Origin: Gammaproteobacteria bacterium
Lineage (GTDB): Bacteria > Pseudomonadota > Gammaproteobacteria > Eutrophobiales > Eutrophobiaceae
Direction of reading: 5' to 3'
Length of the DNA stretch: 64,000 nt
Assembly (NCBI GenBank): GCA_965243205.1
Contig: CBDEUK010000002.1
Coordinates: 1,152,001 to 1,216,000 of the forward strand
Shown here: positions 5,212 through 59,934 of the stretch, piece after piece
Layout: each line of letters starts with the position of its first letter
How positions within the stretch are numbered: the stretch's first letter is position 1
Notes under the pieces: generated by a model
The model's input: only the letters and a program-made list of their open reading frames with translations
What the model was told of the DNA's origin: nothing
Database searches by the model: none
Made by a program: the position numbers and the translations under genes

Positions 5212-5576
5212 GGGGGCGTACTTGGCTTCGACGTGGATTACAAAACCTGAGGGGCATGCCGAGGATGCAGAAACCCTCGTTAATCATATCTGTAACTTTA
5301 TAGTTGCCAACGATGACAACTACGCTCTAGCTGCTTAATAACCAGTCTTAGTGCCGTCTGCCCGAAGTGTGCTTGTGCGCTCGGTTCCAGGCGTCGACTC
5401 ACACAAGATCGCGATGAAGTTTGTCCGAGGTGGATTCGCTAAACTTTTTTCGGAATCGCTAGCAGTCTTCCCTGCCGTTCGGGTAGCTGTTAGTTAAACT
5501 TAAAGAGTCGGCTAAGCATGTAGAACCGAAGGCGGAGAATTTGCGGACGCGGGTTCAACTCCCGCCGCCTCCACCA
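5212..5576 (+). ncRNA. ssrA: tmRNA (SsrA), tag peptide ANDDNYALAA
   Basis: 5' GGGGGCG pairs with 3' CGCCTCC followed by ACCA; T-arm GGGTTCAACTCCC; tag ORF gccaacgatgacaactacgctctagctgcttaa at 5306-5338; follows smpB. Confidence 0.97.
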
Positions 5577-53726: not shown

Positions 53727-54932
53727 ATGAATATGTTAAATGAAGAAATCTCTGATATGAATTACGCTGTACAAAAGCAGCTAACGAAATTCATTCATGC
53801 GTTATCTGGTATACGTTCATTGAGTAATATTGAGATTGGAGATTGCTTGGAGCACGAGCTTTATCGTTCTATTGTAAAAGCGGTATTAACAAATATTGAT
53901 ATGGATAGTTGTTCTATTTTTCTTTATGAGGATGAAAAATTCAAATGCGTTGCTGGAATTTCTTGGGACGATAGAAATCAGAACAATATCATTCGATTAT
54001 CAAATTCAAGTCATACCTTTAATAAATCTGAAGGTATCATTGGCCAATGTGCTGATAATAAAACGTTAGTACATATTAAAGATTGCTCTGAAGAACCAAA
54101 ATATAAATTATTTGGTGATGGTGTTTACAGTAAAGCTAAAGGTTCTCTAATTTGCACACCTCTCATATCAAATAAAAAATTCATTGGTGTTTTAAATACT
54201 TCACATCCATATGCTGATTTTTTTGAACCATGGCATGAAAAAGTCATTATGACTTATGCAAACTTCATAGCTAAATTGATTATGAATCATCGTATGTTTC
54301 ATTCAATGGAAGCAGAGATATATTCTCAAACACGTGAATTACAATCTGCTCTACGTGAATCTGAAAATTTGAAACAGCGGTATCAAGAACTATCATCCAT
54401 AGATTATTTAACTGAATTGCATAACCGTCGTTATTTCTTTCCAGAATTAGTGAAAAGTATTTCTAATGGTAAACGACACAATCAACCACTATCATTATTA
54501 GTATTGGATTTAGATTCGTTTAAACTAGTGAATGATACTTATGGGCATGAATTGGGTGACGCAGTATTGATTGGCGTCAGTCAGTTATTAAAACGACAGA
54601 TCCGAAAAGGCGATTTATTAGCACGCCTTGGCGGTGAAGAATTTGTTATTGCCCTAGTTAATACAGATACCCAAGGTGCCATTCAGTTTGCTGAACGACT
54701 TCGTGTCATGATCAGTGAATTAAAATGGTCTTATCAAAACAAATCTATTCAAATAACTACTTGTATTGGCATTAGTTCTTTAAATCATGATGATGAAAAT
54801 GTTGAAAATATATCAAGAACTTTAGTTGCTGATGCTGACAAAGCACTTTATTACTGCAAAGAAAATGGTCGTGACCAAATCAAAGCCCATAGCGATTTGG
54901 AATACGCGAGTAGTGATAGTAATATTCACTAA
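53727..54932 (+). CDS. GAF-GGDEF diguanylate cyclase
   Basis: GAF (GSLICTPL...IGVLN), [15 protein letters not shown]-site, GGEEF. Confidence 0.92.
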
Positions 54933-54958
54933 ACGATTCATTACTATGCTCATTTTTG

Positions 54959-57046
54959 ATGCAAAAAGAAAAAGGCTTAAACGCACTTAAAGAAGAAACC
55001 AGCCCTTATTTACTTCAGCACGCTGAAAATCCAGTACATTGGTTCCCTTGGTCAGAACAAGCTCTGACACTTGCGAAAGAACAAAACAAACCGATTCTTT
55101 TATCCATTGGCTATTCTGCATGTCATTGGTGTCATGTAATGGCACATGAATCCTTTGAAGACGAAGAAACAGCAGAATTAATGAATACGTATTTCATTAA
55201 TATCAAAGTTGATCGAGAAGAACGACCTGATATTGATAGCATCTATCAAAAAGCTCAACAACTGTTAACACAACGGACTGGCGGCTGGCCTTTAACCATG
55301 TTTTTAACACCCGATGATCATATACCTTTTTTTGGTGGTACCTATTTTCCTAAAGAAGCAAAGTTTGGTTTGCCGTCTTTTAAAGAACTACTTATAAATA
55401 TTTCAAATTTTTATTTAACTCGCGAAGATGATATACGTAAGCAAAATGCTTCTTTTCAAAGTGCGTTAAGTCGATTTGAAGTCAACAGTTCAAATATAGA
55501 ACAATCGATTAATGAAGAACCTCTTCAAGAAGCCTATTATCAATTACAACAATCGTTTGATCATGCTTACGGTGGATTTGGGCAGGCACCTAAATTTCCT
55601 CATCCAAGTAATATAGAACGTTTATTACTACATGCATTTTCAGTCAATGAGAAAGATGAATCTCAACAAGCCATGCAAATGGCATTATTCACTTTAGAAA
55701 AAATGGCTATCGGTGGAATTTACGATCATGTTGGTGGTGGTTTTTCCCGTTATTCCGTTGATCAATATTGGATGATTCCTCATTTTGAAAAAATGCTTTA
55801 TGACAATGGGCCATTATTATATTTATATGTGAGTGTATGGAATATAACCGGCTTCTCATTTTTTAAAAACGTAACTGAAGAAACCGCTGATTGGATCATA
55901 AAAGAAATGCAATCAGACGAAGGTGGTTATTATTCTGCATTAGATGCAGACTCAGAAGGCGAAGAGGGGAAATATTATGTCTGGCAACGAGATGACATTC
56001 AAAATATCTTGGATAAAAATACCTTTGAATTATTTGCACATACATATGGCTTAAATCATGAACCTAATTTTGAAGGCAAATGGCATTTATACTTAAAAAA
56101 TAATCTCGAAGAAACAGCAACTCATTTCAAAAAAGATGTACTTGAATGCAAAGAATTAATATCAAACTGTAAAACACGTTTATATGAAAAACGTGAACAA
56201 CGTATTCGACCAGGTTTAGATGATAAAATACTTGGATCATGGAATGGACTCATGGTCAAAGGTATGGCTCAAGCAGGACGACTGCTTAATAATGAATCCT
56301 ATATAAACTCTGCAAGCAAAGCGTTAGATTTTATAATAGATAATTTATGGAAAAATGCACGGTTACTAGCGACCTATAAAGATGGTAAAGCACATTTAAA
56401 TGCTTACTTAGATGATTATGCATTTTTAATCGATGCCTGTTTACAACTCTTACAAGCAAAATGGAATTCAAGATATTTAACTTTTGCTACTCAATTAGCT
56501 GAAACATTAATCGAACAATTCTATGATGAAGAAAATGGTGGGTTCTTTTTTACAAGCCATGATCATGAAAAACTGATTAATCGAGAAAAACCATATATGG
56601 ATAATGCAACGCCAGCAGGTAATGGCATTGCTTGTATTACTTTACAACGTTTAGGTCATTTAGTTGGCGAAACTAAGTACAATGATGTCGTCGAAAATAC
56701 CTTAAAAGCATCGTGGTCATCCATCAATTCTTATCCATCAGCACACAATACTTTGCTACAAGCCTTACAAGAATATTTAGAACCACCTCAAACAATTATT
56801 CTTCGTGGTGAACAAAAAACTATGCAGCAATGGCAACAAAATATTTTAGAAAAAACATTTTCATTATCAACATTGGTATTTTGCATTGATAAAGAAATGA
56901 AAAATTTACCTGAAATCATTCAAGCAAGATCCGCTGACTCAGAATGCACTGCCTATTTATGTAAGGGGCATAGTTGTTTACCGCCATTTAACAATATAGA
57001 AAAGTTGTTAGAAAGTTTAAACACAATCTCAAAGTCACCACCCTAA
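54959..57046 (+). CDS. YyaL/SSP411 family protein (thioredoxin plus six-hairpin domain)
   Basis: [45 protein letters not shown]. Confidence 0.94.
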
Positions 57047-57313
57047 ACTCTTTTATTTTCTGACTTGAAATAACGCTCGATTTGCCTTATGCTGCGCCGC
57101 AATAGTTGGTATTGAATTAGATTCATTTATTGCTCAATTAACAACTATTATATACATACAGCTCCTGGGCAGATGTGCCGGTGCTATAGTAAGTTTGGTT
57201 GCGTGCTAATAGTTTTGAAAAAAACTCAAGCCAAAACCATAGCCAAGTAGTGTCTGTTGCTCTGTACCTGGAACTGTTTTTAATCAACTAACAGTTAATT
57301 GGTGAAGGTGAAG

Positions 57314-59119
57314 ATGAATACAGAAAACCAAAAACTGCTGGCATGGGTAAACCAAATTGCCAACTTATGTAACCCCGATAATATCCACTGGTGTGATGGC
57401 TCTCAAAACGAATGGGAAGCTATGTGTAATCTCATGGTAGAAGCCGGCACAGCAAAACAACTCAATACTGAAAAACGTCCTAACAGTTATTACGTCCGTT
57501 CTACCCCTGAAGATGTTGCTCGCGTCGAAGACCGGACTTTTATTTGTTCTCAAAACCAAGATGATGCTGGACCAAATAATAATTGGTGTGAACCAAAAAC
57601 TATGCGACAAACATTAAGCAATCTTTTTAATGGTTGTATGCAAGGTCGAACCATGTACGTCATTCCTTTTTGCATGGGCCCCATCGGTTCTAATATTTCA
57701 CAAATTGGTATTGAGATTTCCGATTCACCCTATGTTGTTGCAAACATGCACATCATGACACGCGTTGGTGAACCAGTACTTAAAGCATTAGGTACAGATG
57801 GTGACTTTGTACCTTGCATTCATTCTGTTGGGGTTCCGTTATCTGAAAATGAAATTGATGTTGCATGGCCTTGCAACCCTGATAATCGTTATATTATTCA
57901 CTTTCCCGAGTCACGTGAAATTTGGTCTTATGGTTCAGGTTATGGTGGTAATGCCCTATTAGGCAAAAAGTGTTTTGCACTTCGAATAGCCTCTACCATG
58001 GCAAGAGATGAAGGTTGGTTAGCTGAACATATGTTGATCTTAAAACTGACGAATCAAAACAATGAAGTTAAATACATAGCGGCTGCATTTCCAAGTGCGT
58101 GTGGGAAAACCAATTTAGCGATGTTAATACCAACCATTCCCGGTTGGAAAGTTGAAACAATCGGTGATGATATTTGTTGGATGAAATTTGGTGATGATGG
58201 ACAACTTTACGCAATTAACCCAGAAGCTGGTTTTTTTGGTGTTGCACCTGGTACAGGCATGAACTCAAACGCTAATGCAATGTTAGCCATGAGTAAAAAT
58301 ACAATCTTTACCAATGTTGCAGAAACAGATGATGGAGATGTGTGGTGGGAAGGCATGACAACACAATCACCAAAACACTTAATCGATTGGCAAGGTAATG
58401 ATTGGACTCCAAAATCAGAATCGGTAGCAGCACATGCCAATGCTCGATTTACAACCCCTGCTGTTCAATGTCCAACGATCGCTGATGAATGGGACGATCC
58501 GAAAGGTGTTCCAATCAGTGCTATTTTATTCGGTGGTAGACGTGCATCCGTTGTTCCACTTGTAACAGAAGCATTTGACTGGGAACATGGGACATTTATG
58601 GGAACGATCATCGCTTCTGAAATGACGGCTGCAGCGTTTGGTACTATCGGCAAATTACGTCGCGACCCAATGGCCATGTTGCCATTTTGTGGCTACAACA
58701 TGGCTGACTACTGGAATCATTGGTTAAGCATTGGTAAAAAAGTTGATGCCAAGCTGCCTAAAATCTTTTATGTAAACTGGTTTCGTAAAGATAAAGAAAG
58801 AAAATTTATGTGGCCGGGCTTTGGAGAAAACAGCCGAGTATTAAAATGGATATTTGATCGTTGTAATGGTACAGCGAATGCTGTTGATACAGAGATTGGT
58901 AGAATGCCTTTAATTAACGATATAGATTTTAGTAATCTTGATGTCACTGCTGATAATGCCATTAAACTTTTGAGTGTCGATGTTGATGGTTGGCTTTCAG
59001 AGTTACCTGATATCGAAAACTACTATGCAAAATTTGGTGAACGATTACCTAAAGAACTCAATAAACAAATACAAATGTTACGTTCACGTTTAATGGACAA
59101 TAAACAAGCTGTTGCTTAA
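57314..59119 (+). CDS. pckG: GTP-dependent phosphoenolpyruvate carboxykinase
   Basis: [56 protein letters not shown]. Confidence 0.96.
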
Positions 59120-59141
59120 ATCTATTCTCTTTATCTAGTAC

Positions 59142-59174
59142 TATCCCGCTACTTATATATAAAGCAGCGGGATA
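59142..59174. terminator. Hairpin between convergent genes
   Basis: TATCCCGCT...AGCGGGATA. Confidence 0.65.
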
Positions 59175-59190
59175 ATAAATCCTTTAAGTA

Positions 59191-59934
59191 TTAGCCTTCC
59201 ATCAAATTAGCTTCAACAATATTTTTTGCGAATGTAGAGTATTGTTCTTCAAACATTTTAGCCATACTATCTGGAAACGCATGAAACTCACCGGCTTTTA
59301 AAGCAGAAATAATACTTTCACTTACCAAAGAGCTTGGTTCAGCAATTTCTCCTAAGCCTGCATTGTTTGCCATATCAGTATCAATAGGTCCCGGATGTAC
59401 ACTCACTACATGTGTTCCTTGTTCGGCGAGTTTATCTTTTAAACCTTGCGTCAATGAATAAGCCGCTGCTTTAGAAGCAGAATAAGTTGCAAAATCTGCA
59501 AAGTTTTTCATCGAGGCAACTGAATTCAATTGCACAAACGCACCTCCACCATTCTGTTTTAAGATCGGTGCAAACGCTTGTGCTATGTGTATAAGACCAT
59601 AAACATTTACATCGACTTCTTTTTGAAACGCATCAACGGCATTCTCAGATAAAGGTGATGCCGTTTCTAAAATCCCAGCATTATTAATTACTAAATCAAC
59701 ATCACTTGCAGTATTAGCTGCCGCTTTAATGGTATCTGGTTTTGACATATCAACGTATATTGGCACAACCTTATTGCCATGCGCTGCAACTAATGCTTGC
59801 GCACTATCGATGTTACGAACCGCTGCATACACTTTACTCGCACCATGCTCGATAAGTGATTCAACAATGGATTTTCCAATACCACGATTGGCACCTGTTA
59901 CTAATGCTGCTTTATTACTTACATTAAAACTCAT
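59191..59934 (-). CDS. Short-chain dehydrogenase
   Basis: [17 protein letters not shown]. Confidence 0.92.

What the first reader, a model, noticed from the sequence alone, without database searches (positions are those of the whole stretch)
57158..57281. ~120-nt nested hairpin with a GAAA tetraloop and U-tail in the pckG leader: candidate new cis-regulatory RNA
Seen, nested from the outside in: ACAGcTCCtGG/CCtGGAaCTGT; GCAGATG/TGTCTGT; GCTATaGT/ACcATAGC; TTTGGTT/AGCCAAA; AGTTTT-GAAA-AAAACT; then TTTTT, ending about 33 nt before the start codon. Several G-U pairs work only on the plus strand, and the segment is richer in GC than its flanks. It lacks the SRP core motif and I cannot match it to a riboswitch I know. 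Inference: an attenuator, riboswitch or sRNA controlling GTP-dependent PEPCK.
Basis: partly seen in the sequence, partly recalled or inferred. Interest (0 to 1): 0.7.

Follow-up and report, generated by a model that had tools for sequence, protein, structure and literature searches.

The report
Species-specific hairpin in pckG leader
A real but only modestly unusual 120-base RNA hairpin with a U-tail sits just upstream of a gluconeogenesis gene, but it has no relatives anywhere searched, so it is at best a lineage-specific leader structure and not a demonstrable new RNA class.

Summary
The hairpin exists: 57158-57277 folds into one imperfect stem-loop (44 pairs, 8 G-U, -35.7 kcal/mol), followed by T5 and ending 32 nt before the pckG ATG. 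Its outer stem and apical GAAA hairpin are robust.

It is only modestly unusual. The fold z-score is -1.9, and it ranks 21 of 573 intergenic regions for a single long hairpin.

It matches no Rfam family, is single-copy, and has no homolog in 125 genomes of its order, or in plasmids or phages. The nearest pckG relatives are only 73-76% identical, so covariation cannot be tested. No RNA data exist.

A promoter-like box recurring in 23 of 29 family loci places the hairpin inside a ~214-nt pckG leader.

Best reading, at low confidence: a lineage-specific leader stem-loop acting in cis as a leaky terminator/attenuator or a stability or processing element. A neutral hairpin is about as likely. A riboswitch is disfavoured.

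The parts
54956..57046 (+). Upstream gene: thioredoxin-like DUF255 protein (696 aa)
   Evidence: Pfam Thioredox_DsbH 1.5e-71; ORF list
57065..57093 (+). Best sigma-70-like promoter candidate (TTGAAA, 17-nt spacer, TATGCT); predicted start near 57100
   Evidence: Consensus scan, 9 of 12. A CTTGAWW box with a -10-like hexamer 16-19 nt later occurs upstream of pckG in 23 of 29 family loci; 300 shuffles gave mean 0.37, max 4. The pattern was defined after seeing the data. Such 9/12 sites are not enriched in this DNA: 69 found against 80.5 expected per 20 kb.
57090..57104 (+). 15-mer at the predicted transcript start; 14 of 15 identical to a 15-mer in the pckG upstream region of relative L026. Possible operator.
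   Evidence: blastn-short hit, E 0.66; not followed up
57101..57149 (+). AU-rich upstream hairpin closed by a perfect 8-bp inverted repeat (57101-57108 / 57142-57149)
   Evidence: MFE of the 241-nt leader
57135..57303 (+). Possible outer 8-bp helix (57135-57142 with 57296-57303) enclosing the main hairpin; its 3' strand abuts the Shine-Dalgarno region
   Evidence: Present in the centroid structure, not in the MFE
57158..57277 (+). Main imperfect stem-loop, 120 nt, 44 pairs (19 GC, 17 AU, 8 GU), -35.7 kcal/mol
57211..57226 (+). Apical 6-bp stem with GAAA loop
   Evidence: Pair probabilities 0.92-1.0
57277..57281 (+). T5 (U5) run directly after the stem; its first U pairs with A57158
   Evidence: Sequence; pair probability 0.75
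57305..57311 (+). Shine-Dalgarno-like purine stretch
   Evidence: Sequence; GAGG-type sites at the same place in relatives
57314..59119 (+). pckG, GTP-dependent PEP carboxykinase (601 aa from this ATG)
   Evidence: Pfam PEPCK_GTP 5.5e-172 and PEPCK_N 1.4e-104. Relatives align from residue 1 of this start.

Best explanation
The element is a species-specific, imperfect 120-nt stem-loop inside the long 5' leader of the pckG mRNA. It is inferred to be transcribed from the promoter-like site at 57065-57093, which gives a leader of about 214 nt.

The stem is followed directly by U5 and lies 32 nt before the start codon. The most likely action is therefore in cis on the nascent or mature pckG transcript. 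It could be a leaky intrinsic-terminator-like attenuator that limits read-through into pckG. Alternatively, it could be a structural leader hairpin that affects mRNA stability or processing, or, through the optional outer helix next to the Shine-Dalgarno site, translation.

What is shown: the structure, its position, its single-copy status and its lack of homologs. What is inferred: the promoter, transcription through the hairpin, and any regulatory effect.
For: - The hairpin persists in isolation and in the 241-nt leader, in both the MFE and the centroid.
- The outer stem abuts a U5 run.
- It ranks 21 of 573 intergenic regions as a single long hairpin, and it is the only one of the 24 top-ranked windows printed whose tail is a T5 run.
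- GC is 45% against about 30% in the flanks.
- A promoter-like box recurs upstream of pckG in 23 of 29 family loci. In several loci whose upstream ORF ends with a GGDEF-like peptide rather than a DUF255-like one, the box lies in non-coding DNA.
- The intergenic region before pckG is long (132-316 nt) in all 22 loci measured.
- A hairpin abutting a T-run 35-55 nt before the ATG also occurs in the only same-genus genome (54 nt, -14.7 kcal/mol, T6 at -43) and in 5 other loci, 7 of 63 in all including ours.
- Five relatives share a leader hairpin with compensatory changes, 11 of 22 pairs. This shows that pckG leaders can carry selected structure in this family.
Against: - The fold statistics are weak: z -1.9, with 4.2% of shuffles as good, and z -1.08 for the whole leader.
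- There is no homolog anywhere, so no covariation.
- The similarity to the same-genus leader is top of 62 by a hair only: score 32 against 31 and 30 for distant genomes.
- The stem is far longer and weaker at its base than a textbook terminator, and the terminator scan does not call it.
- Terminator-like and promoter-like consensus sites are no more frequent than in shuffles in 20 kb of this DNA. Both the U-run and the promoter match therefore carry little weight alone.
- Part of the promoter-box conservation overlaps the 3' coding end of the DUF255 gene in relatives, and the pattern was chosen after seeing the data.
- Family leaders are only slightly more structured than shuffles, and hardly strand-specifically: mean z -0.98 forward against -0.69 reverse complement.
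- No expression data exist.
Confidence: 0.35

Rival explanations
1. It is a neutral, unselected hairpin: an imperfect inverted repeat that arose by chance or local duplication in a fast-evolving non-coding leader and has no function.
For: - z is only -1.9, and 3.5% of GC-matched genomic windows are as stable.
- It ranks 120 of 573 for any fold.
- 93 of 573 intergenic regions reach its GC content.
- No conservation was found in 125 genomes of the order.
- The middle of the stem has two competing registers.
- Minus-strand folding is nearly as good.
Against: - A single 44-pair hairpin at this energy occurs in only 0.22% of GC-matched windows.
- It ranks 21 of 573 among intergenic regions.
- It ends exactly at a U-run at a position where the same-genus relative also has a hairpin plus T6.
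Confidence: 0.35
2. It is the intrinsic terminator of the upstream DUF255 gene, or of read-through from it. pckG would then be transcribed from a weak promoter overlapping the 3' arm and the T-run.
For: - It is a hairpin plus U5 lying 112-235 nt after the DUF255 stop codon, on the same strand.
- By eye, a TTG-type hexamer at 57257-57262 and a 5-of-6 -10-like hexamer at 57279-57284 are 16 nt apart. This is my reading and is not called by the scan.
Against: - A better and recurrent promoter-like box lies between the DUF255 stop and the hairpin.
- The proximal promoter candidate fails the scan's threshold.
- The terminator after pckG itself is a compact GC-rich stem, unlike this one.
Confidence: 0.1
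3. It is an independent small RNA gene of about 125-185 nt that ends at the U-run, started either at the 57065-57093 site or at a weak -10-like hexamer just before 57158.
For: - Promoter-like site, then structured RNA, then U-run.
- The hairpin begins about 7 nt after a 5-of-6 -10-like hexamer at 57146-57151 (my reading).
Against: - There is no homolog and no Rfam match.
- It has no typical compact GC-rich terminator.
- Only 32 nt remain for a separate pckG promoter and leader.
- No expression data exist.
Confidence: 0.1
4. It is a ligand-sensing riboswitch controlling GTP-dependent PEPCK.
For: Only the architecture: promoter, structured leader, hairpin with U-run, then the gene.
Against: - Riboswitch aptamers are conserved across species. 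Here the covariance model found 0 of 125 genomes in the order and the pckG leaders of relatives share no 10-mer with the hairpin beyond noise, at most 5 of 62.
- The fold is a plain rod with no multi-helix junction or conserved internal loop.
- There is no Rfam hit even at E 10.
Confidence: 0.03
5. It is a decayed relic of a small mobile element or recombination site (MITE-like or attC-like) inserted into the leader.
For: - It is a long imperfect inverted repeat, GC-richer than its flanks.
- It is enclosed by a perfect 8-bp inverted repeat.
- Removing it would bring the leader nearer to the spacing seen in some relatives (my reading).
Against: - It is single-copy in the genome by blastn and by covariance model.
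- There is no match in plasmids or phages.
- I saw no target-site duplication.
- The outer repeat misses the recalled attC core consensus at one position.
Confidence: 0.05

Closest known systems
Rho-independent terminator / leader attenuator (general class; properties recalled from textbook knowledge)
   Same: A stem directly followed by a U-run, placed between a promoter-like site and the start codon on the gene's strand.
   Different: The stem is 120 nt, with many bulges and an AU/GC-mixed base, instead of a short GC-rich stem with a 3-8 nt loop. The scan does not call it. No alternative anti-terminator pairing was found, and termination is untested.
RLE0239-type candidate regulatory 5'UTR upstream of Vibrio cholerae pckA (VC2738), listed by Livny and Waldor, PMC2836559 (I saw only the table passage)
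   Same: A candidate cis-regulatory leader upstream of a PEP carboxykinase gene in a gammaproteobacterium.
   Different: That gene is listed only as phosphoenolpyruvate carboxykinase, VC2738. That it is the ATP-type enzyme is my recollection. I have no sequence or model of RLE0239, so no comparison was made. Nothing shows a relationship.
Conserved pckG-leader hairpin in five relatives of the same family (L004, L009, L014, L017, L027)
   Same: A hairpin roughly 50-95 nt upstream of the pckG ATG, downstream of the same type of promoter-like box.
   Different: It is short (about 30-45 nt) and shows compensatory changes, 11 of 22 pairs. A profile built from it finds only its own five sequences among 63, and not this window.
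Long leader hairpins that stabilise mRNAs or are cut by RNase III (ompA and pnp leaders; recalled, not tested)
   Same: A long quasi-continuous duplex in a 5' leader.
   Different: No 5'-end or cleavage data exist. The resemblance is by shape only.

Membership tests
Any Rfam 15 family | Covariance-model score at or above the gathering threshold | tested here: not met
   The only hit in the window is tmRNA at 5212-5576. At E up to 10 on 56950-57400 there were two chance hits, at 57305-57380, neither overlapping the hairpin.
Intrinsic terminator / attenuator | U-run immediately 3' of a stem | tested here: met
   T5 at 57277-57281; stem closes at 57158/57277
Intrinsic terminator / attenuator | Compact GC-rich stem with a 3-8 nt loop | tested here: not met
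   0 terminator-like sites in 56900-57400. The stem is 120 nt, with only 19 of 44 pairs GC.
Intrinsic terminator / attenuator | RNA 3' ends at the U-run; conditional read-through | not testable with these tools
   No RNA run holds the region
Riboswitch | Aptamer sequence and structure conserved across species upstream of related genes | tested here: not met
   0 of 100 family genomes and 0 of 125 order genomes by model R1; 0 of 29 further loci; no shared 10-mers beyond noise
Riboswitch | Ligand binding | not testable with these tools
   Needs in-line probing or similar
Multicopy repeat / MITE | Two or more copies in the genome | tested here: not met
   1 match in the own genome by blastn and by R1
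6S RNA | Match to RF00013 | tested here: not met
   The genome's 6S is elsewhere (G000:C2:1612219-1612396, 66.4 bits); there is no hit at this locus
Independent sRNA gene | Own promoter, discrete transcript, terminator | tested here: inconclusive
   There is a promoter-like site upstream and a U-run, but no expression data

The most novel reading that the evidence does not exclude
The hairpin is the terminator arm of a lineage-specific transcription attenuator that gates GTP-dependent PEPCK. It would be one instance of a family-wide habit: pckG is driven from a promoter embedded at the end of the upstream DUF255 gene, through a long leader that evolves quickly but carries selected structure. 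The same-genus hairpin plus T6, and the covarying hairpin in five relatives, would be sister solutions.
Probability: 0.1. Interest if true: 0.5.

Novelty: new member of a known kind. Interest (0 to 1): 0.22.

Why it matters
If the hairpin is functional, it would add post-initiation control to a key gluconeogenic step in a poorly studied gammaproteobacterial order. It would also show that pckG leaders there are regulatory hot spots. As it stands, it is a single-genome structure without expression or comparative support. Its main value is as a cheap target for 5'/3'-end mapping. The recurrent promoter box and the covarying leader hairpin in relatives are better starting points for RNA discovery than this hairpin.

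Tried and rejected
**Searches for homologs**
- Rfam at gathering threshold and at E 10 found nothing at the locus.
- blastn in the own genome found one copy.
- blastn in 60 relatives gave one 34-nt match, E 0.002, on a contig (C13) other than the two (C30, C10) that hold that genome's pckG pieces.
- The single-sequence covariance model R1 was run on 100 family genomes and on the 125 other genomes of the order, and found none.
- On 20 pckG loci with filters off it gave 51 hits at E up to 10, all generic hairpins. The best was 17.5 bits, downstream of a pckG. One 13.6-bit hit lay upstream of the pckG of L019.
- On 29 more loci it found none.
- Genome contigs and metagenome-contig scans for closer pckG relatives found none above 76% identity.
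- blastn against plasmids and phages found nothing.

**Comparison with the same-genus genome**
- Pairwise MAFFT with the same-genus intergenic region gave no convincing alignment.
- The local alignment of the last 100 nt looked significant against mononucleotide shuffles (0.6% of 1000). It was not an outlier against the 62 real leaders, so I treat it as a lead only.

**Expression**
- No RNA holder is listed.
- The three runs guessed as RNA laid no contig on 56000-59500. One DNA contig covers the stretch identically and may be the source of the assembly.

**Ideas rejected**
- 6S RNA: it is found elsewhere in the genome.
- CsrA sponge or site: I count only one GGA in the intergenic region.
- Small proteins: a 25-aa ORF at 57173-57250 and a 49-aa minus-strand ORF have no convincing ribosome-binding site and were not pursued.
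- Sigma-54 promoter and attC readings: checked by eye against recalled consensus motifs and dropped.
- Family-wide leader structure: mean z is only -0.98, against -0.69 for the reverse complement.
- A profile of the five-relative leader does not hit this window.

**Literature**
- Three searches found no described pckG-leader RNA among the titles listed. I did not read beyond the listings, except for passages of PMC10746170 (GacA and the pckG promoter in Acinetobacter baumannii) and PMC2836559. Supplements were closed, and subscription journals are not covered. This is not proof that nothing is in print.

**Tools**
- The look-up of encoding contigs, protein homology, structure and complex tools were not used.

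Full report
**What is there**

The window carries three genes on the plus strand: a GGDEF/GAF gene (53727-54932), a thioredoxin-like DUF255 gene (54956-57046) and pckG, encoding GTP-dependent PEPCK (ATG at 57314, ending at 59119). The DUF255-pckG spacer is 267 nt.

Within it, 57158-57277 folds as one imperfect stem-loop of 44 pairs (19 GC, 17 AU, 8 GU) at -35.7 kcal/mol. It is followed by a T5 run at 57277-57281, whose first U closes the stem, and then by 32 nt before the ATG.

In the ensemble, the outer stem (9 pairs) and the apical AGUUUU-GAAA-AAAACU hairpin (6 pairs) have probabilities of 0.75-1.0. The rod-like shape is kept when the whole predicted leader is folded, in both the MFE and the centroid.

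**Is it more than chance?**

Only moderately.

- The 141-nt segment has z -1.62 on the plus strand (11 of 200 shuffles as good) and z -1.15 on the minus strand (29 of 200).
- The exact 119-nt element has z -1.90, with 4.2% of 1000 shuffles as good.
- Among 2280 GC-matched random windows of the same genome, 3.5% are as stable and 0.22% are as stable as a single hairpin.
- I made a crude ORF-based partition of the 2.79-Mb genome into 573 intergenic regions of 130 nt or more. This region ranks 120th for any 120-nt fold and 21st for a single-hairpin fold. The windows above it include stretches that I recognise by eye as rRNA, tRNA, SRP-like and TPP-riboswitch-like, plus several unexplained hairpins. 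Those labels are my reading and were not tested.
- The element's GC (45.4%) exceeds its flanks (31.5% and 29.7%) and the genome (36.7%). However, 93 of 573 intergenic regions contain a window that GC-rich.

**Is it known, repeated or conserved?**

- No Rfam family matches, at gathering thresholds over the window or at E up to 10 over 56950-57400. The genome's 6S RNA is elsewhere.
- The element is single-copy in its genome and absent from the plasmid and phage collections.
- pckG is present in 50 of 61 family genomes searched, including the window's own. The best protein identity is 76%, and the single same-genus genome reaches only 73%. Scans of genome and metagenome contigs found nothing closer.
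- blastn with the element found no counterpart at any pckG locus in 60 relatives.
- A covariance model built from the single sequence found nothing in 100 family genomes at E up to 1, or in the 125 other genomes of the order at E up to 0.1. It also found nothing in 29 further pckG loci. It found only generic hairpins in 20 pckG loci with filters off.
- No 10-mer of the hairpin recurs, with one mismatch allowed, in more than 5 of 62 other pckG upstream regions.

Covariation therefore cannot be tested with present data. The hairpin is, as far as can be seen, specific to this species.

**Context: is it in a leader?**

- The best sigma-70-like site in the spacer is TTGAAA, a 17-nt spacer, then TATGCT, at 57065-57093. 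By itself this means little. Such 9-of-12 sites are no more frequent than in shuffles: 69 against 80.5 +/- 9.9 per 20 kb.
- Its -35 box with one preceding base is the only piece of the spacer that recurs in relatives. TGACTTGAAA occurs in 7 of 62.
- A pattern of CTTGAWW followed 16-19 nt later by a -10-like hexamer occurs upstream of pckG in 23 of 29 family loci. In 300 shuffles the mean was 0.37 and the maximum 4.
- Two cautions apply. I defined the pattern after seeing the data. In loci that keep the DUF255 gene, the box overlaps its last codons, so part of the conservation may be coding constraint.
- In favour of a promoter: in loci whose upstream ORF ends with a GGDEF-like peptide rather than a DUF255-like one, the same box lies in non-coding DNA about 200-250 nt before pckG. 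Those labels come from the C-terminal peptides only.
- The spacer before pckG is long (132-316 nt) in all 22 loci measured.

I therefore infer, but have not shown, a start near 57100 and a leader of about 214 nt with the hairpin at about +58 to +178.

**Do relatives have an analogous element?**

- A hairpin of -7 kcal/mol or better abutting a T-run occurs somewhere between -170 and -10 in 19 of 63 upstream regions. It occurs between -35 and -55 in 7 of 63. These are this window, the same-genus genome (54 nt, -14.7 kcal/mol, T6 at -43), L005, L014 (a compact terminator-like stem), and L039, L040 and L117.
- The 3' arm, U-run and following AT-rich stretch align locally with the same-genus leader at a colinear position (score 32; 0.6% of 1000 mononucleotide shuffles). 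Distant genomes score 31 and 30 in the same test, so I count this as a lead and not as evidence of homology.
- Five relatives share a short leader hairpin with compensatory changes, 11 of 22 predicted pairs. A profile from them finds only themselves among 63 regions.
- Across 23 predicted leaders the mean fold z-score is -0.98 (SE 0.23), against -0.69 (SE 0.19) for the reverse complements. This window's leader scores -0.83 and -1.47 respectively. Family-wide selection for structure is therefore weak at best.

**Mechanism**

The anatomy is a promoter-like site, an AU-rich small hairpin (57101-57149), a long hairpin, U5, 32 nt, then a Shine-Dalgarno site and the ATG. This is the layout of a leader attenuator. 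I commit to a cis-acting leader stem-loop that either terminates a fraction of transcripts at the U-run or shapes mRNA stability or processing.

An optional 8-bp outer helix (57135-57142 with 57296-57303, present in the centroid only) would place the region next to the ribosome-binding site in a duplex. That could add a translational effect.

I found no alternative anti-terminator pairing. The stem base is weak, and the terminator scan does not call the element. The terminator after pckG itself is a compact GC-rich stem of a different style. My confidence is therefore low (0.35), about equal to the neutral-hairpin reading.

A riboswitch is disfavoured because nothing is conserved and the fold is a plain rod. 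The other rivals cannot be excluded without RNA-end mapping. They are a terminator of the upstream gene with an overlapping weak pckG promoter, a separate sRNA, and a relic of a mobile element.

**Expression**

No run on record as RNA holds the region. The four holders belong to one study and may be the source of the assembly. Three small runs guessed as RNA laid nothing on 56000-59500. This says nothing about expression.

**Literature**

A full-text search for pckG, and two searches combining PEP carboxykinase or pckA with riboswitch, leader or attenuator terms, listed no paper on a pckG-leader RNA. I read only the listings, plus the following:

- Passages of PMC10746170. In Acinetobacter baumannii, GacA is reported to be needed for pckG expression and to bind its promoter region.
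- The table passage of PMC2836559. A candidate regulatory 5'UTR, RLE0239, is listed for the Vibrio cholerae PEP carboxykinase gene VC2738.

Supplements were closed and might hold relevant motif lists.

**Verdict**

The interpretation as a new cis-regulatory RNA can be neither supported nor refuted with available data. If functional, it is a lineage-specific member of the known class of leader hairpins or attenuators.

Noticed in passing
window 57065-57093, and pckG upstream regions of L004-L032: A CTTGAWW box followed 16-19 nt later by a -10-like hexamer recurs 90-310 nt upstream of pckG in 23 of 29 family loci. In loci with the DUF255 gene it overlaps that gene's last codons. In loci whose upstream ORF ends with a GGDEF-like peptide it persists in non-coding DNA. 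This suggests a pckG promoter embedded in the end of the upstream gene.
   Followed up: partly
L004:1375-1441, L017:3330-3396 (minus), L027:1412-1472, L014:1408-1469, L009:1406-1467: Five relatives share a conserved pckG-leader block: an AAUUCUGAUA-like stretch, a short hairpin with compensatory changes (11 of 22 pairs), then an AUAGCUA-like box. Four of these five leaders have fold z-scores of -2.4 to -3.3; L009 scores -0.82. This is a better candidate for a conserved leader RNA than the hairpin in the window.
   Followed up: partly
pckG leaders of relatives (for example L004, L008, L013, L015, L019, L029): The A-rich motif AACAATAA occurs exactly in 6 of 29 family leaders (shuffle mean 0.6, max 4) and with one mismatch in 17 of 29 (shuffle mean 9.1, max 17). 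By eye it often sits in predicted loops. It is absent from this window's leader. It resembles AAN-repeat Hfq-type sites; that resemblance is recalled and not tested.
   Followed up: partly
window 57090-57104: A 15-mer at the predicted transcript start matches 14 of 15 bases at the corresponding place in L026. Similar TTGC...GCAA-like palindromes are visible by eye in several relatives' leaders. Possible operator of a transcription factor.
   Followed up: no
window 5212-5576 (+): tmRNA gene, 222 bits, full length.
   Followed up: no
G000:C2:1612219-1612396 (+): Canonical 6S RNA, 66.4 bits.
   Followed up: no
G000:C2:663953-664332, C2:127484-127795, C2:34876-35326, C2:1070100-1070555, C2:77867-78133: Other intergenic regions with long, partly perfect hairpins of unknown nature. 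One is a perfect palindrome of about 20 bp next to a tRNA-like sequence, and one is an AT-rich perfect palindrome.
   Followed up: no
window 59130-59175: A compact GC-rich inverted repeat lies between the convergent pckG and short-chain dehydrogenase genes. It is likely a bidirectional terminator without a clear T-run.
   Followed up: no
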